A stretch of DNA of 64,000 nt from Clostridia bacterium (GTDB taxonomy: Bacteria > Bacillota > Clostridia > TANB77 > CAG-465). The notes below the pieces were generated by a model. It worked only from the letters and a program-made list of their open reading frames with translations. It was not told where the DNA came from and did not search any database. Position numbers and translations under genes: made by a program. Location: the NCBI GenBank assembly GCA_017478805.1, contig JAFVCY010000010.1, forward strand, positions 484 through 64,483. Direction: 5' to 3'. Position 1 is the first letter of the stretch. Each line of letters begins with the position of its first letter. This document shows, piece by piece, positions 29,436 to 38,525 of the stretch.

Positions 29436-29747
29436 CTCATGGTATTATATGAATGTAGGTTATATATTGTGAGAAAAATAAGAATATAAAAAAAGAGTAA
29501 AAAACAATATTATAAAAAATAATAGTTAAGAAAGACCTATAAATTACGCTAACTATACAAAATATAGTTTTTCTATAATATTATTTATTCTATCTAGTAT
29601 ACTCTCTAATTGTAATATTTTACTTGCTTTTTTCCTTACGTTAATGATTAAATATAATTAAAATTATCAGTTAAATCGTCAATATTTTTTCTATATTATA
29701 GAAATTTTAATAGTTTTAAGATTTTTTTCTTCATTACTCATTTGATT

Positions 29748-29787
29748 ACTTTTGTTCGTATATGTTATATCATATACGAACAAAAGT
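29748..29787. repeat. Perfect 17-bp inverted repeat with a 6-nt loop.
   Basis: The sequence is acttttgttcgtatatg ttatat catatacgaacaaaagt. Confidence 0.6.
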
Positions 29788-29912
29788 AACCATATTTTCG
29801 CTATATTATACAAAATAATTATAGTAATTTTTCCATATTTATGATATATTCTTTCTATCTTTTTTTATTTTTACTATTTCTTCTATGAAGTAACTTATTA
29901 TTTTTTATACCT

Positions 29913-31145
29913 TCACCTTACTTGCTGATTTAAGGGATTAGAATTTGTTTCTATATTATTATTAAACCCCAAGCTTTCTATAGAAGGCACCTCATATCTT
30001 ACTACATCATTTTCATCATTCCAAAAAAGTCCAACATTCTTACATCTTTCACTATCTACTAAAATATTAAGCAGTGCTTTTGAGACCTCTTTATCAAACT
30101 GTTGCATGCCATTTTCATCTTTTGAAGAACATCTATGAATTTCATGTATTATCTCTTTCAGTGTTTTAGGACTTTCATAAGTTCTTCCAAGCATAGCATG
30201 CATTGCATCTGCAACAGAAATAATTTTAGAGACTTGACCAATTTGAGTGTCTTTTAGTCCTAAAGGATAGCCTGTACCATCTGGTCTTTCGTGATGTTCT
30301 ACACATGCTTCAATGGCACTATCTAATAATGAGTTTTCACGATTTAAACCTAGTTCTAATGCACCAAGCACAGCATGGTTCTTCATTATCCTATATTCTT
30401 CTTTTGTAAGTCTTGCAGGTTTATTTATAATTTGACTAGGTATATATAACTTACCATAATCATGAAGTAAAGCAGCCAGTTTTATTATTTCTATTTCATC
30501 TTTAGACTTTCCCATTTCAACTCCTATTTCTTCTGCTATTTTAGTTACACTGCTTACATGCTCTAAAGTATATTCATTTCCTGTGCTCCTAAAACTATTA
30601 ATCATCTCATTAACAATATCAAGAGTTGTTTTTTCAGTAGTAGCTATAACCTGCTTTGCTTGACTTTTAGAGTTTGCGCTACCTATAAAATTACCAGTAA
30701 TATTTCTATAATTCCAAGAAAACAAACTTGTTTCAGGGTAACTATCATATAATATTTCCATTGCAAGTTTTGTTTCATTAGAACTATCCTCATCATGAAC
30801 TAAATTAACAAAATCGATTCCAAGCTTCCTATTATGATTATGCTTTATTTGCCTACTATTCAAATTTAAAGCTTTAATTAGCATTTCTCTATACTTTTTA
30901 TTTCTTAACGTTTCAGGAGTAAAAACGAAGGTATCTATATATTTTAACGTAGATAACTGTAAATCAGTTCCTGAGCCATACCTTTCTGCCCCTTCTAAAT
31001 CATCATAATCAATTAGTATAACACAAATAACATTTTTTACTTTTTCATCATTAGTATAAAATGTATTCCTAATCATTTCTGTAAGTATTCTCTTATTTAT
31101 CTTACTATCATCTGGCATACACATTGCCACAACGTATTGCTTCAT
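29913..31145 (-). CDS. HD-GYP domain protein, a putative c-di-GMP phosphodiesterase.
   Basis: It contains HDYGK and HHERPDGTGYP. Confidence 0.8.
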   Translation of the reverse strand: MKQYVVAMCMPDDSKINKRILTEMIRNTFYTNDEKVKNVICVILIDYDDLEGAERYGSGTDLQLSTLKYIDTFVFTPETLRNKKYREMLIKALNLNSRQIKHNHNRKLGIDFVNLVHDEDSSNETKLAMEILYDSYPETSLFSWNYRNITGNFIGSANSKSQAKQVIATTEKTTLDIVNEMINSFRSTGNEYTLEHVSSVTKIAEEIGVEMGKSKDEIEIIKLAALLHDYGKLYIPSQIINKPARLTKEEYRIMKNHAVLGALELGLNRENSLLDSAIEACVEHHERPDGTGYPLGLKDTQIGQVSKIISVADAMHAMLGRTYESPKTLKEIIHEIHRCSSKDENGMQQFDKEVSKALLNILVDSERCKNVGLFWNDENDVVRYEVPSIESLGFNNNIETNSNPLNQQVR

Positions 31146-31184
31146 ATATCACACATCCTTCCAAAAAATTAAAATTCATTATTT

Positions 31185-31895
31185 TTATACATTATTACAA
31201 AAATTTATCTCAATATCAGTCAAATAATCCTTCTTGTTATTCACAAATTCAGTCATATTATTTATTATATCTATATCTTTTTGTTGCTTTGATGTAAGCA
31301 AAGATTTACTCGCTCTCATATTGATATCAGAATTAATTGTATTGAGTCTAGGGATATCTAAATTATGATACGCCTTATACCATTCAGAGCACAAATCATT
31401 TATATACTCTCTTTTTTCTTCAAATACATTTAATTTACTTGAAATCTCATTTGAAAATGTTCTACCATTAATACTATTTTTTATACTATCAACTAAGCTT
31501 GTTAATTCATCACTTAAAATATTATTATTTATATATTTACTATATACAGTCTCTATCCCTGCAGATAGATTCTCTCTAAGACCACCTTTAAATAACGTAT
31601 TTTTCATTTCTGTTAAATCTTCCATTTTCTCTTTGGATATACCAAGTAGCTCCATACCTTCTCTCAAACTACTATTAATTGCTGTTTTTATGACATGTCC
31701 AATATCTTTTGTTTTTATAGCCTCTTTAACATCAGACAAAATGTCTTTTACACTCTCCGGCACAGGTAAGGCTTTAATCGCAAAATTTGCTGTTTTATCA
31801 ATTGCATCACCTATTATTTTTCCAAATACCCCTTTTTCCTTCTCTATATTTTTATCTAGTTGTTTTACTAAATCATTACCAATATTTATTTCCAT
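31185..31895 (-). CDS. Hypothetical soluble protein in the secretion-ATPase operon.
   Basis: It is a 236-aa ORF lying 2 nt downstream of the upstream gene. Confidence 0.45.
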   Translation of the reverse strand: MEINIGNDLVKQLDKNIEKEKGVFGKIIGDAIDKTANFAIKALPVPESVKDILSDVKEAIKTKDIGHVIKTAINSSLREGMELLGISKEKMEDLTEMKNTLFKGGLRENLSAGIETVYSKYINNNILSDELTSLVDSIKNSINGRTFSNEISSKLNVFEEKREYINDLCSEWYKAYHNLDIPRLNTINSDINMRASKSLLTSKQQKDIDIINNMTEFVNNKKDYLTDIEINFCNNV

Positions 31896-31897
31896 AT

Positions 31898-32539
31898 TTA
31901 TTCCTCCATTTTACATATTTTCAAATAAATAACATACATAAAAAAGTATGTAAGAATATTAAAACTAAGAATAGCTTGTCCACCTATAGTATTTAGTATT
32001 ATGTCACTATAATCTTTATTTCTAAGAGCAAAGCCAAATAAAAGTAGAAGGCTTAAACCGATTAAAACAATGAGTATAATTTTGCTACTTAGCAAATTCT
32101 CATTTATTCTTTCCCTTTCTATATTTGTCTTTGACTGTGAATAAGAATACTTTTGTATAACATAGCTAAAACTTCCACCATTTAAGTAGCAATTCTCAAG
32201 TAAAGTTAAAAGTGAAGATACCTCCTCTATATTTATATCCTTTTTCAAATTTTCAAACGCACTATATACATCAAGACCTTTTTCAACACTTAAGTTAAAT
32301 CTCTCAATACTAGCTTTTATTAACGGATGAGGTGTAGATTCTTTAAGCGCATACACAATGTTATTATCTACATCTGTATAATTTTTAAGGCTAAGTACAT
32401 ATGTTGGGAAAAATTTTAATATACTATTTTTTCTTCTTTTTAGTAAATATATAGCAGCATTATACGGAATCATAGCTATGAGTATAGCCATTAAAAATGA
32501 TGGAATAATACTTTTTAGTATTCCGCATGAAAAAAACAT
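31898..32539 (-). CDS. TadB/TadC-like (T2SSF-domain) membrane platform protein.
   Basis: It has an N-terminal TM segment, a cytoplasmic helical domain and two C-terminal TM segments. Confidence 0.5.
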   Translation of the reverse strand: MFFSCGILKSIIPSFLMAILIAMIPYNAAIYLLKRRKNSILKFFPTYVLSLKNYTDVDNNIVYALKESTPHPLIKASIERFNLSVEKGLDVYSAFENLKKDINIEEVSSLLTLLENCYLNGGSFSYVIQKYSYSQSKTNIERERINENLLSSKIILIVLIGLSLLLLFGFALRNKDYSDIILNTIGGQAILSFNILTYFFMYVIYLKICKMEE

Positions 32540-32669
32540 ATGAAAATATAAATACTAAAGAAGAAAAAACTAAGAAAGTAGTCATAGAAAGAAATTTAAA
32601 GTTATAATTTATTGCTACTTCTAAAATTGTATCCTTGAGTGATAAATATCTTTTATTTTCTTTTATCAA
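32460..32669 (-). CDS. Small membrane protein, which may instead be a frameshifted 5' part of the TadB-like gene.
   Basis: It has a single TM segment and overlaps the downstream ORF by 80 nt. Confidence 0.3.
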   Translation of the reverse strand: MIKENKRYLSLKDTILEVAINYNFKFLSMTTFLVFSSLVFIFSYVFFMRNTKKYYSIIFNGYTHSYDSV

Positions 32670-32772
32670 ATTTAGTTTTTCACTTATACTATTTACAGTA
32701 AGCGTTGAATTAATAATTCTAACGCTTGACAGACATATAATAAATTTTAAAATTTCAATTATATATACTATA

Positions 32773-33936
32773 CTAAGTCACCTCCTCTTTATATAAAGTA
32801 TTAAACTTTACTTTAGTTTTCAAAAAATTTACTTCAACTATTTCATTTACCTTAAAATTTTTCATAAAAATAATATAATCTATGCTCTTACATAGCAGTT
32901 TTTGAATAAATTCCTCTTTATACTGCTGAGACAGTGGATCTCTTTTAACTAAAGTTATAAGTCTATCTATTGTATTTTCAGCACAATCCGAGTGAACTGT
33001 TGCATATCCTAAATGCCCTGTTGAAATAGAGTCAAAAAATACAGAAGCCTCTTTTCCCTTTAGCTCACCAATTATAATTGCATCATTAGAAGATACCAAA
33101 GAATGTCTAGTTAAAGTATCAAGACCAATATCTTCTGCCATACCTCTTGACAGCATAACTTCTCTTTGAATCACATTTTTATCAGGAATATTAAGTTCAG
33201 CAGTCTCTTCATTAGTAGATATAGCTAGTGTATTTGGAAGCTTCTGTATTAAAGCTTTAAGAAGGGTAGTTTTTCCACTTCCACCTTTGCCAGAAATAAC
33301 TATGTTTTTTTCCGAATTTACAGCATCTAGAAGTAATTTATACACATCATCATTTAACATACTATACTCATCTTTAAGTACCTCTAATGTTTTAATTATT
33401 TCATTCCTATGCACTCTAATTACTAGGCTTGGACTTGAGACATTTACTGGTGCAATTCCTGCTTCAATCCTTAGATTATTTTTTCTATCACTAAAAACAA
33501 GTAGAGGTCTATCATAATTTATAATTTTCCCATTTTTTAAAGCGACATATCTTATATACTCAGTAAACTCCTCATCATTTTTAAATGAAATATCCTCTTT
33601 AACCCACTTTCCTTTTATTTTTACATACACACTATTATATGCAACAACTCGTATATCACTTACATCTTCATTTTCTATATACCTTTGTAGCAAACCATAA
33701 CCAAAAATCCTATTTAATACTTCTGTACTTATTTTTTCAATTTCCTCATCACTTGTTAAACTATAACTATCATAAAGATAACTCCTAATTTTATTTTTTA
33801 GTGCCACAATATCTTCACTTACAAGCAGATTCATAAAATTATCAACTAAATATTTTTGAAGACTTGCAACATCAACAGTATTTTCACTATTTTTTGAATG
33901 TACATTTTCTTGATAATTAAATGGGTCTATAATCAT
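32773..33936 (-). CDS. CpaF/TadA-family secretion ATPase (VirB11 superfamily).
   Basis: It contains the Walker A motif ISGKGGSGKTTLLKAL, plus GELKG and TVHS boxes. Confidence 0.8.
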   Translation of the reverse strand: MIIDPFNYQENVHSKNSENTVDVASLQKYLVDNFMNLLVSEDIVALKNKIRSYLYDSYSLTSDEEIEKISTEVLNRIFGYGLLQRYIENEDVSDIRVVAYNSVYVKIKGKWVKEDISFKNDEEFTEYIRYVALKNGKIINYDRPLLVFSDRKNNLRIEAGIAPVNVSSPSLVIRVHRNEIIKTLEVLKDEYSMLNDDVYKLLLDAVNSEKNIVISGKGGSGKTTLLKALIQKLPNTLAISTNEETAELNIPDKNVIQREVMLSRGMAEDIGLDTLTRHSLVSSNDAIIIGELKGKEASVFFDSISTGHLGYATVHSDCAENTIDRLITLVKRDPLSQQYKEEFIQKLLCKSIDYIIFMKNFKVNEIVEVNFLKTKVKFNTLYKEEVT

Positions 33937-35117
33937 AACTGCCTTCTTTCAAGAAGCATAGATACAAAATTCTTACTTTTATTTTTTATCTCCACTACTC
34001 CTAAATCTTGATATACTAAATTCTTATCTAGTCCATAATCCATATGGAAATTAACACCGTTTACAAAGCCTTCAACATTGCTATTATAGCTTACATAGTC
34101 TATAATCTTATAATCTGAGAAAAACGATTCAATCTGATATTTATCCAGCGAATTTTTTTGCATTTTATTAATAACTATAACAATATTTGATTTTGAAATA
34201 CCCCAAAGTTTAGTCATTAAATCCAAATATTTTCCAGCTTGTCTTATACTAATATAATTTGGGTTAACTACAAAATATATTTTACTTGCAACTGATAAAG
34301 AATACTGTACAGCATCAATAAAAGGACTTGCTGGCAAATCTACAATCAAGCTATCGTACCTATTGCTAAGTGCAGCATATATCTTTTCATAGTAAAAAGA
34401 ATTTAATTTATTCTGGCACTCGTATATAGATGAGTTATTTGTTATATACGATACTTCATTTTCACAAACGCCTCCTACTCTTGAATCTAAAATATCATTT
34501 ATATCTATTCCTTTATCAATATCTTCAACTATGTTACTTAAAACGTTTCCTATACCATTTAAGTTATTATATATGTCAATAGCTGGATTTTGAAGGTCCA
34601 TGTCCACCATAGCAACCTTCATTCCAATATCTTTAGAAAGAATTCTTGCAAGATTTGACGCTATATACGATTTTCCACTACCACTTGTTCCATAGACCGC
34701 AATAAAATGCTTTGGAAGAACCCTACTTATATTTGACATTTCACTTTTTTGAAAAACTACCTTATTTTCTTCTTCTATACACTCAGTAATCCTCTTTATA
34801 TCAATTCTATCTCCTTCTATAATATTAAAAATATTATTTGCATATAGGAACTTCCTATATGGCTCATCTAATTTTTCTGTCAGTAAAATCACTTTACACT
34901 TTTCATTTGCTAGTCTTATTTGTTTTATATATATTTCTTTTGACATATCTCCATCTAAGGTATCTTTTGTTATTACAATATCTTCATCTTCAGAATTATT
35001 ACTTATATACTCTATCGCCTTCTCCATACTTGTTATATCATTTTCATACACATCATCTAAATATTTATCTTTAAGTAACCCTAAAACTCTTTTATTATTT
35101 ATTGCAAGTATTATCAT
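33933..35117 (-). CDS. TadZ/CpaE-like protein with a pseudo-receiver N-domain and a MinD/ParA-type ATPase.
   Basis: It contains AVYGTSGSGKSYIASNLA...VAMVDMDLQNP. Confidence 0.65.
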   Translation of the reverse strand: MIILAINNKRVLGLLKDKYLDDVYENDITSMEKAIEYISNNSEDEDIVITKDTLDGDMSKEIYIKQIRLANEKCKVILLTEKLDEPYRKFLYANNIFNIIEGDRIDIKRITECIEEENKVVFQKSEMSNISRVLPKHFIAVYGTSGSGKSYIASNLARILSKDIGMKVAMVDMDLQNPAIDIYNNLNGIGNVLSNIVEDIDKGIDINDILDSRVGGVCENEVSYITNNSSIYECQNKLNSFYYEKIYAALSNRYDSLIVDLPASPFIDAVQYSLSVASKIYFVVNPNYISIRQAGKYLDLMTKLWGISKSNIVIVINKMQKNSLDKYQIESFFSDYKIIDYVSYNSNVEGFVNGVNFHMDYGLDKNLVYQDLGVVEIKNKSKNFVSMLLERRQL

Positions 35118-36666
35118 CTTCTTTTCCTCCTTCTATATATTTTTTTTCATATTCATTTGCTTCAATCTTAAGACCTAAACATGAATTATTTAAATACATA
35201 TTCATTTCTCCTTTATTTAATGTACTCATTTGTCTATAATCCTCTTCATTGATAATCCCAATATTTCTTAATATTTCTGTTTCTTGATACTCAACTTTGA
35301 AAAAAAGTTTAATATATGAGTTATTGAATATACTTTTTCCAAATCCTGCACCATCTTTTGAAAAGAAATCAGAAATGTCTTGAGTAATGGTAACTATTCC
35401 TGCATTTCTTTTTCTCACTGTTTTGTACAAATCAAATATCTTTTCTGAAAGTGCTTCACTTGTATATATAAGTTTCCACACTTCATCTATGTATATAAGG
35501 CTCTTATCATTTATACTAAGGTTATTTTTTATATACTCAAGTATAATCTCACATACTCCAGACTTCTCATTTGCATTTACCTGTGAAATATTAAAAACCA
35601 CAATATCTGAGTCTAACCCTAAATTTGTTATACCATTTAAGAAGCTAAAGCTGGCTTCAAACTTATTTTTTAGTTTCTTTACTATAGCATCTCTTTCCTT
35701 CTTTTTAAGACTCGTATTTGCAGATATGTTATTTATAACATCAGATATAGTAGGGAACTTAGATTTATCTTTAATTTTTTTACTTAAAAAAGTGTCATCT
35801 ATTTCATAAATACTTGTTATATCATCAGTTATTCTTAAAATCATATATTCTTCTTTAATCGCCTCTTTTATCACATTAATTTCTTCTTTCAAATCGCATA
35901 AATTAACTATTAATTCTGAAACTTTATTAATTTTTTCCTTCAGATAATTATTTTTTAGTTCATACTTAAATATTTGCAAAATGTTAATTTTATCTTTTGT
36001 TACATCAAAAATAGTTCCAGGCATAGACAAATATTCTGCTTCTTGGTCAATTACATATTGCTTAATACTTTTTAAATAGTTTCTAAGTATCATTAGTTTA
36101 GTAAAATATGATTTTCCACTACCACTTGAACCAAATATACACATATTAGAATTTAAATGAAGATTACTAAACATATCTAATATGCATATCTCACTACTAT
36201 TCTTTATTTTTCCAAAAAGTATTCCTCCACTTTCAAGTATAGCCTTGGTATAAAACGGAAAGAGCATCTTTATATTTTCTGTTGTCATATTTACGTAGTA
36301 ATTTGGCATAAGCTTTGAAGATGAATCATTAAATGGAATTATTGATTTATAGCCTAGTAAATGCCTAAAATTTAGTGTATTAATATTTAGCATTTTTGTG
36401 ATTATTTCAGCTTTAAACCTTTCTGATATACTAAATAATTTTTCCTTATCTTTTGAGAAAATACTCACATATGTATATACCTTATATACTTCCTGATTAT
36501 TTATTTGCATATCATATCTAAGTTGTTTAGCATCTTCTTTTGCCTTGTTTATTACATCAAGCTGAATACTTCCCTTCACGCTATCTTTGTAATCTACTTC
36601 ATTTTTAGAAATACTTACACTTAATTTTTTTAGTATATCCATAGAATTTTGCTTACTAAAATGCAT
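35095..36666 (-). CDS. VirB4/TrbE-like ATPase domain protein of the FtsK-HerA superfamily.
   Basis: It has the Walker A motif IFGSSGSGKSYFTKLM and a DE(A/V)W Walker B (LIYIDEVWKL). Confidence 0.6.
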   Translation of the reverse strand: MHFSKQNSMDILKKLSVSISKNEVDYKDSVKGSIQLDVINKAKEDAKQLRYDMQINNQEVYKVYTYVSIFSKDKEKLFSISERFKAEIITKMLNINTLNFRHLLGYKSIIPFNDSSSKLMPNYYVNMTTENIKMLFPFYTKAILESGGILFGKIKNSSEICILDMFSNLHLNSNMCIFGSSGSGKSYFTKLMILRNYLKSIKQYVIDQEAEYLSMPGTIFDVTKDKINILQIFKYELKNNYLKEKINKVSELIVNLCDLKEEINVIKEAIKEEYMILRITDDITSIYEIDDTFLSKKIKDKSKFPTISDVINNISANTSLKKKERDAIVKKLKNKFEASFSFLNGITNLGLDSDIVVFNISQVNANEKSGVCEIILEYIKNNLSINDKSLIYIDEVWKLIYTSEALSEKIFDLYKTVRKRNAGIVTITQDISDFFSKDGAGFGKSIFNNSYIKLFFKVEYQETEILRNIGIINEEDYRQMSTLNKGEMNMYLNNSCLGLKIEANEYEKKYIEGGKEDDNTCNK

Positions 36667-36827
36667 ACTTACACTGTATTCAATATCTTTTGGAAAAAAC
36701 TCCCTAAAACTAAAACTTTCAACTTCCTTTGGATAGCCATATATTATATATGTAATTAAATATGTATCGTTTATTTTTAAATACTTAAAATTACTACTAT
36801 CAATTATATCTGGACAAATATTATTAA

Positions 36828-37337
36828 CTATATAAATTCAACTCCCTTCATTAAATAATTAGAAATATTTTCTATGCCGACAATTTTTTCACATTTCATA
36901 TTAATTTCATCTAAAATTTTTAAATAGTTTTCCACATTTTTCACATAAGTAGTTGTTGAAATTACAAGTAGATATTCTATAGCATATATTTTTGAATAAT
37001 TAAAAAGATTCTTTAAGTTTTTCATATACTCATCTATCATTTCCTTTTTTACTTCATCTTTACCTTCTTTTGATATTTCAAAATAATCCTCTACATTAAT
37101 CTCTTTATTTTTCATAATAATTTGGAAGTCTAAATTCATAAGTCTTAAAAATTGTTCATATTTACTGATTATCTCATAAATCCTTTTATCATTTTTATCA
37201 ATAATAAGCACAGGATTAATTCTAAAAAAATATACATACTTTTTTATTCCTGATATATTTACTATAGCAGCATCTTCTAATATCTCACTTACATCATATA
37301 TTTCTGATATATCTAAATACTTTTTTATTTTCATCAC
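36828..37337 (-). CDS. Hypothetical protein. It may be the detached N-domain of the VirB4-like ATPase.
   Basis: It is the first gene of the operon and has an ...FRINPVLIIDKNDKRIYEIISKYEQFLRLMNLDFQIIMK pattern reminiscent of Gram-positive VirB4 N-termini. Confidence 0.3.
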   Translation of the reverse strand: MMKIKKYLDISEIYDVSEILEDAAIVNISGIKKYVYFFRINPVLIIDKNDKRIYEIISKYEQFLRLMNLDFQIIMKNKEINVEDYFEISKEGKDEVKKEMIDEYMKNLKNLFNYSKIYAIEYLLVISTTTYVKNVENYLKILDEINMKCEKIVGIENISNYLMKGVEFI

Positions 37338-37404
37338 TTCCTTTCTGTAACATATATAAACTAATCGTCATATAATTTAGTATAATAATTTTAGGAGGTA
37401 AGTT

Positions 37405-37569
37405 ATGGGAAACAATATCATGGGGTCAAAACTTTTAGAACTTTTATCTGGTATAGATAAAAATAAATTAGAAGAAGCTAGTAGAGTGCTAAATAGTATG
37501 TCTAAAGATGATTTAAATAGTATCGTTTCAATGCTTAAAAATGGCTCTAATAATCAAAATGGAAAGTGA
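37405..37569 (+). CDS. Small hydrophilic protein of 54 aa.
   Basis: A strong AGGAGG RBS precedes the ATG. Confidence 0.4.
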   Translation: MGNNIMGSKLLELLSGIDKNKLEEASRVLNSMSKDDLNSIVSMLKNGSNNQNGK

Positions 37570-37967
37570 TTTATATGGAAAATGAAACTAATGCGCTTTA
37601 TGACATAATTCAAAGTTTATCTCAAAATTTATCTACAAACACTGATAATTTAAAAACTGAATATGTAGAACAAACGAATAAAAATACATCTCAAGATTTA
37701 AATATATTAGATATTTTAAATAATTTAGGGATAACAAATAGCAGTAGTGAAAATACACCAAAAGATACGTCAAATACATTTGACATTTCTACTATTGTTA
37801 AAATGCAAAAATTGCTATCTGCTTTTAACTCTGAAGATCCAAGGAAAAATCTACTTATGGGTATAAAACCATTTCTAAGGTCGTCAAGACAAAATAAAAT
37901 TAATGAATACATAGCATATTTTTCTGTAATTTCAGCACTGGGAATATTTGGTAATAATAAGGGGTGA
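37566..37967 (+). CDS. Hypothetical protein.
   Basis: It is translationally coupled to the upstream gene through a GTGA overlap. Confidence 0.4.
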   Translation: MIYMENETNALYDIIQSLSQNLSTNTDNLKTEYVEQTNKNTSQDLNILDILNNLGITNSSSENTPKDTSNTFDISTIVKMQKLLSAFNSEDPRKNLLMGIKPFLRSSRQNKINEYIAYFSVISALGIFGNNKG

Positions 37968-37972
37968 GGTAA

Positions 37973-38302
37973 ATGGATGAAGAAACTAAAATTAATGATT
38001 CCCAAAATTCTAGTTCTTTACCTCCAAATCAAAATAGAACATATGATGAAGAAAATAACAGTTCCAAACTACTACATCCAGAATTTTCTATTGATACTTT
38101 AAATAGTAAAAGTATAAACATTTTGGGATTTGATTTATACTTTGATGACATTATAATACTTGCTCTTATACTTTTCCTACTACAAGAAGAAAAAAAGGAT
38201 TATCTATTAATCGGTGTTCTTGGGCTCATGTTCTTTGACTTTTCTATAGACAAATTATCAAGTTTTGAACCCTTAAAAAAATTACTTGGTAATATCACCT
38301 AA
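37973..38302 (+). CDS. Hypothetical membrane protein.
   Basis: It has a GAGGT RBS and a C-terminal TM region. Confidence 0.4.
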   Translation: MDEETKINDSQNSSSLPPNQNRTYDEENNSSKLLHPEFSIDTLNSKSINILGFDLYFDDIIILALILFLLQEEKKDYLLIGVLGLMFFDFSIDKLSSFEPLKKLLGNIT

Positions 38303-38437
38303 TTCATAAATAGAATAATATTCCATTATTTTCTTATCAATTCTTACACTCATATCATATACTTCTTCTTTACTTGCACCTTTTTCTATTAAAAGGTCAA
38401 GTTTTCTTTTTAATTCTTCTATCTCTTTTTCTATCAC
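38282..38437 (-). CDS. Spo0E-family aspartyl-phosphate phosphatase-like protein of 51 aa with a GTG start.
   Basis: The product is VIEKEIEELKRKLDLLIEKGASKEEVYDMSVRIDKKIMEYYSIYELGDITK, a Spo0E-like helical hairpin. An AGGAGG motif lies upstream. Confidence 0.5.
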   Translation of the reverse strand: MIEKEIEELKRKLDLLIEKGASKEEVYDMSVRIDKKIMEYYSIYELGDITK

Positions 38438-38495
38438 CCGTCATATACCTCCTCACAAATATGATAACAGTTTCAAACCCATATGTCAATATTTC

Positions 38496-38525
38496 TTGTC
38501 AAACTTTCGGTCGCAAGTTTCGACA
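38496..38525. promoter_or_regulatory. 0A-box-like cluster (tgtcaaa ... ttcgaca) upstream of the Spo0E-like gene.
   Basis: The sequence reads tgtcaaactttcggtcgcaagtttcgaca. Confidence 0.3.

What the first reader, a model, noticed from the sequence alone, without database searches (positions are those of the whole stretch)
29748..37337. Eight-gene operon joining a split VirB4-like ATPase to TadZ/TadA/TadB-like pilus ATPases and an HD-GYP protein, with no pilin gene
The co-oriented, partly overlapping genes run in this order on the minus strand:
- a 169-aa protein with a VirB4-N-like pattern;
- a 523-aa ATPase with GSSGSGKS and the DE(V)W Walker B typical of VirB4/TrbE conjugative ATPases;
- a TadZ/CpaE-like pseudo-receiver plus MinD ATPase;
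- a CpaF/TadA VirB11-type ATPase;
- a 69-aa TM protein;
- a TadB/C-like platform protein;
- a 236-aa unknown protein;
- an HD-GYP c-di-GMP phosphodiesterase.
A perfect 17-bp palindrome lies about 125 nt downstream of the last gene.

Canonical Tad loci carry Flp prepilin, TadV and pseudopilin genes, and do not contain VirB4. Conjugative type IV secretion systems carry VirB4 but no TadZ. I found neither a prepilin nor a relaxase/coupling protein here. A canonical type IV pilus operon already exists at 3.2-11.7 kb, so this is a separate machine. A three-ATPase hybrid sited between spo0A/yabG and a Spo0E-like gene could be an uncharacterised secretion or envelope-remodelling machine, perhaps c-di-GMP- or sporulation-linked.
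Basis: partly seen in the sequence, partly recalled or inferred. Interest (0 to 1): 0.8.

Follow-up and report, generated by a model that had tools for sequence, protein, structure and literature searches.

The report
Sporulation-linked split VirB4 ATPase cluster
Uncultured gut Clostridia carry a conserved chromosomal gene cluster that pairs a conjugation-type motor protein (VirB4, encoded in two pieces) with a MinD-like ATPase and an orphan helical protein; it has none of the other conjugation or pilus parts, it sits among predicted sporulation control signals, and no paper I could search describes it.

Summary
The genes are real and the domain calls hold, with five corrections.

- **Seven genes, not eight.** The 69-aa ORF is the N-terminus of the TadB-like gene, which is broken by a 1-nt frameshift in a T7 run.
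- **The VirB4 split is genuine and conserved.** The ATPase part has lost its canonical start codon in this window.
- **The invariant core** across about 55 species-level MAGs is N-domain, VirB4 ATPase, MinD/TadZ-like ATPase and a 236-aa orphan helical protein.
- **Accessory parts.** CpaF/TadB are ancestral but were lost at least 4 times. HD-GYP occurs only in this window's small clade.

No coupling protein, relaxase, VirB6, hydrolase, pilin or prepilin peptidase is present in the cluster. The orphan protein is absent from plasmids and phages.

Regulation is predicted from sequence. A composite Spo0A-box element precedes the VirB4 operon in 26 lineages, though not in this window. It precedes the Spo0E-like gene in at least 26 lineages, including this window. 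The small-protein operon has a σK-type promoter.

Best reading: a domesticated VirB4 motor linked to sporulation, with an unknown substrate. No description was found in the searchable literature.

The parts
38282..38437 (-). Spo0E-like gene (51 aa). Its 3' end overlaps the 3' end of the 109-aa gene in convergent orientation. It travels with the cluster in 41 of 64 loci.
   Evidence: Pfam SpoOE-like 32.7 bits against a cut-off of 23; synteny
38506..38525 (-). Composite 0A-box element TGTCGAAACTTGCGACCGAA, lying 16 nt upstream of the -35 of the Spo0E-like promoter.
   Evidence: The same element lies upstream of Spo0E-like genes in at least 26 loci and upstream of the VirB4 operon in 26 loci. It also lies upstream of spoIIE and spoVS in metagenomes.
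38461..38489 (-). SigmaA-type promoter of the Spo0E-like gene (TTGACA-17-TATCAT, with TG).
   Evidence: (11 of 12 consensus matches)
37973..38302 (+). 109-aa protein ('s109'): a variable N-terminus that is Asn/Tyr-rich in most orthologs (Ser/Asn/Glu-rich in this window), followed by a conserved hairpin of two short hydrophobic helices. It is the only membrane protein of the conserved core.
   Evidence: no Pfam family; no similarity to a plasmid T4SS pilin or the VirB3-position protein
37566..37967 (+). 133-aa protein ('s133') with an invariant C-terminal motif LKPFLRxSRQ. It is an orphan family with 825 hits, all from uncultured Clostridia.
   Evidence: AF2 pLDDT 60 and no fold match
37405..37569 (+). 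54-aa soluble protein ('s54'), the most conserved gene of the locus (89% identity to L006, where VirB4 is 59% identical).
37350..37376 (+). SigmaK-type promoter (AC-N17-CATATAAT) of the s54-s133-s109 operon.
   Evidence: Strict pattern in 35 of 43 loci and loose pattern in 43 of 43, against 0.8% of background segments. The consensus is taken from PMC3789822.
36828..37337 (-). VirB4 N-terminal domain encoded as a separate gene (169 aa from the GTG; 168 aa from the ATG at 37334).
   Evidence: NCBIfam VirB4_plasma positions 107-269, E=0.002; precomputed PF26593 TraC-like on the ortholog; co-linear alignment with full-length plasmid VirB4
35095..36831 (-). VirB4 ATPase part, about 575 aa. The canonical start codon is missing. 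Candidate starts are ATA at 36831, which overlaps the TAG stop of the upstream gene, or ATT at 36819. The first ATG is at 36666. Walker A (GSSGSGKS) and Walker B (DEVW) are invariant across the family.
33933..35117 (-). MinD/ParA-type ATPase with an extra N-terminal domain of about 135 aa (TadZ-like architecture) and a basic, amphipathic-looking C-terminal tail. G143, G148, K149 and D260 are invariant.
32773..33936 (-). CpaF/TadA-like hexameric ATPase of the T2SSE family with intact motifs. Accessory: present in 29 of 64 loci.
31898..32669 (-). TadB-like platform gene, broken by a 1-nt frameshift in the T7 run at 32536-32530. A T8 run would restore one protein of about 257 aa with 3-4 TM segments. 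Accessory.
   Evidence: T2SSF 20.9 bits, below the cut-off
31185..31895 (-). 236-aa all-helical orphan protein ('u236'), an obligate partner of VirB4 (56 of 64 loci, including the minimal modules).
29913..31145 (-). HD-GYP protein (410 aa; an unknown N-terminal domain plus HD_5). It is a clade-specific addition, found in only 3 related loci.
29746..29789 (.). Perfect 19-nt inverted repeat with a 6-nt loop, 124 nt downstream of the HD-GYP stop codon and upstream of yabG. No U-tract follows, so it is not a canonical intrinsic terminator. Its role is unknown.

Best explanation
**What it is.** This is a chromosomally fixed ('domesticated') derivative of the VirB4 motor of monoderm conjugation systems. 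It is specific to a lineage of uncultured, low-GC gut Clostridia.

**Composition.**
- The conserved machine is a VirB4 ATPase made from two polypeptides (N-domain plus ATPase), a MinD/ParA-type ATPase with an extra N-terminal domain (TadZ-like), and a 236-aa helical protein found nowhere else.
- A CpaF-like ATPase with a TadB-like membrane platform was present in the ancestor of the main clade. It is dispensable: it has been lost repeatedly, and the platform gene is frameshifted in this window.
- The HD-GYP gene is a recent local addition.
- The cluster is neither a conjugation apparatus nor a Tad pilus.

**Inferred steps.**
- The MinD-like ATPase tethers and positions the VirB4 hexamer at the membrane through its basic amphipathic tail.
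- The operon is turned on by Spo0A~P at entry into stationary phase or sporulation. It shares its upstream element with the adjacent Spo0E-like phosphatase gene.
- The motor then moves or extracts a macromolecule.
- The substrate is unknown. The candidates are DNA (by analogy with ComB and Ced) or the neighbouring membrane-hairpin protein s109, whose gene has a sigmaK-type promoter (by analogy with pilin dislocation by VirB4).
For: **Shown:**
- VirB4 identity and the genuine split.
- The same gene order in 58 genome loci and hundreds of metagenome homologs, all from uncultured Clostridia. The chromosomal contexts are syntenic, next to parB, rpsB, M16 peptidase genes, nrdDGR or gyrB/gyrA.
- Core versus accessory parts, from presence counts and a VirB4 tree.
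- Catalytic motifs are invariant in all three ATPases.
- Plasmid relatives of this VirB4 sit with a pilin, a hydrolase, VirD4 and VirB6. Here nothing of that kind lies within 10 kb on either side.
- u236 has no hit in plasmids or phages, and only 143 clusters among 1.84 billion representatives.
- No PADLOC system match.

**Regulation (sequence-based inference):**
- The element TGTCGAAAnTTGCGAYRAAA lies about 14 nt upstream of a TTGAC-17-TATAAT promoter. It precedes the VirB4 operon in 26 loci and the Spo0E-like gene in at least 26 loci, including this window.
- Elsewhere the same element precedes spoIIE and spoVS. In L126 and L128 it is preceded by further perfect TGTCGAA boxes; in L126 they form a 10-bp-phased tandem array that it ends.
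- The divergent small-gene operon and yabG carry AC-N16/17-CATATAAT, which is the published sigmaK consensus.
- The C-terminal tails of the MinD-like protein are basic and amphipathic-looking.
Against: - In this window's own clade the intergenic region upstream of the VirB4 operon is only 67 nt and lacks the 0A-box element. Spo0A control of the operon is therefore not shown for this organism.
- The element is partly palindromic and also lies upstream of many transposase-like genes, so a regulator other than Spo0A is possible.
- The minimal modules in L043 and L050 encode only soluble proteins, which argues against an obligate membrane channel.
- The adjacency of the small-gene operon and Spo0E-like gene could be inherited synteny. 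In L012 they lie 6.6 kb away from the VirB4 operon.
- No substrate, channel or filament subunit could be identified. u236, s54, s133 and s109 have no sequence or fold relatives.
- There are no expression or phenotype data, because all carriers are uncultured.
Confidence: 0.5

Rival explanations
1. The locus holds juxtaposed but functionally separate units. The VirB4 / MinD-like / u236 module would be a cytoplasmic, DNA-handling motor of the HerA/FtsK superfamily, with a ParA-like positioning partner and a helical adaptor, acting for example in chromosome or origin handling. The sigmaK small-gene operon and the Spo0E-like gene would be unrelated sporulation genes kept next to it by synteny.
For: - The minimal modules contain only soluble proteins and are inserted between gyrB and gyrA, next to dnaN and recF.
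- L001 lies near parB.
- The VirB4 operon and the small-gene operon have different promoter types.
- L012 separates the two by 6.6 kb.
- Extended synteny is conserved across about 35 loci, so adjacency alone is weak evidence.
Against: - The Spo0E-like gene and the VirB4 operon share the same rare upstream element.
- The small-gene operon, the Spo0E-like gene and the VirB4 operon stay together through rearrangements that move the flanking genes, such as nrdDGR in the window clade against M16 peptidase genes in L001.
- No DNA-binding domain was detected in any component.
- From general knowledge, VirB4 proteins are not known to translocate DNA on their own.
Confidence: 0.2
2. The cluster is a working surface filament or DNA-uptake/transfer machine, either a divergent Tad-type pilus or a ComB/Ced-like T4SS derivative. 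Its filament subunit would be s109, or pilins encoded elsewhere. These could be processed by the PilD peptidase of the nearby type IV pilus operon.
For: - A CpaF-like ATPase and a T2SSF-like platform are ancestral in the main clade.
- PilD and pilin-like genes lie 20 kb away.
- s109 has a nearly invariant Gly followed by two hydrophobic helices, and a size like that of small pilins.
- There are precedents for relaxase-less chromosomal VirB4 systems: Ced (PMC9905601) and Patescibacteria (PMC12102498), both.
Against: - CpaF and TadB were lost at least 4 times while the rest of the cluster persists. TadB is frameshifted in this window.
- No Flp or prepilin motif, no VirB6/CedA-like polytopic protein and no hydrolase is present.
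- The s109 profile shows no similarity to a monoderm T4SS pilin or to the protein in the VirB3 position.
- s109 has no Sec or class III leader, and its N-terminus is hydrophilic.
Confidence: 0.12
3. The cluster is a decaying remnant of an integrated conjugative element or other mobile element, or an anti-phage defence system that uses a HerA/VirB4-like ATPase.
For: - One gene is frameshifted and another lacks a canonical start codon in this window.
- A serine recombinase lies next to the cluster in L004.
- There is a weak PADLOC hit of the ATPase domain to mad8, 62 bits.
Against: - The cluster has the same order and a syntenic chromosomal site in about 55 species-level genomes that diverge down to 30% identity, and the catalytic residues are invariant.
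- No integrase, relaxase or coupling protein is present in most loci.
- u236 is absent from plasmids and phages.
- No multi-gene PADLOC system match was found.
Confidence: 0.04

Closest known systems
VirB4/TraC-type ATPases of monoderm conjugative T4SS (MPF-FA/FATA; NCBIfam CD1110 family and Mbov_0397 family; PDB 4AG5)
   Same: Homologous along its whole length (N-domain plus ATPase). Walker A and B motifs are conserved. Alignment with plasmid genes is co-linear.
   Different: - It is encoded as two genes in every family member.
- Scores are far below the equivalog cut-offs: 179 against 590, and 150 against 325.
- It has no pilin/PrgI, VirB6/TrbL, hydrolase, VirD4 or relaxase neighbours, all of which accompany the plasmid relatives.
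- It is chromosomal and syntenic rather than on a mobile element.
Tad/Flp (type IVc) pilus module TadZ-TadA-TadB
   Same: The gene order is a MinD-type ATPase with an extra N-terminal domain, then a CpaF-like ATPase, then a T2SSF-like membrane protein. CpaF is the best PDB match of the ATPase.
   Different: - No Flp pilin, TadV, TadC or pseudopilins.
- The platform match is below threshold.
- The MinD-like protein matches MinD rather than any chain deposited as TadZ or CpaE, and it has a classical GxxGxGKS P-loop.
- The CpaF/TadB pair is dispensable, while the MinD-like gene stays with VirB4.
Domesticated, relaxase-less VirB4 systems: H. pylori ComB, crenarchaeal Ced/Ted (PMC9905601), Patescibacteria T4SS (PMC12102498)
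   Same: A chromosomal VirB4 kept without a relaxase, presumably exapted for a host function.
   Different: Those systems retain VirB2-, VirB3- and VirB6-like membrane and pilin components. None is detectable here. None of them is reported with a MinD-like ATPase, a CpaF-like ATPase or u236.
ParA/MinD-like ATPases that assist T4SS (Agrobacterium VirC1; ParA of the gonococcal genetic island). This comparison is from general knowledge and was not tested here.
   Same: A MinD/ParA-family ATPase working alongside a VirB4-containing machine, with a proposed positioning or recruiting role.
   Different: VirC1 works with a relaxosome and a coupling protein, and it lacks the extra N-terminal domain. 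No relaxosome is present here.

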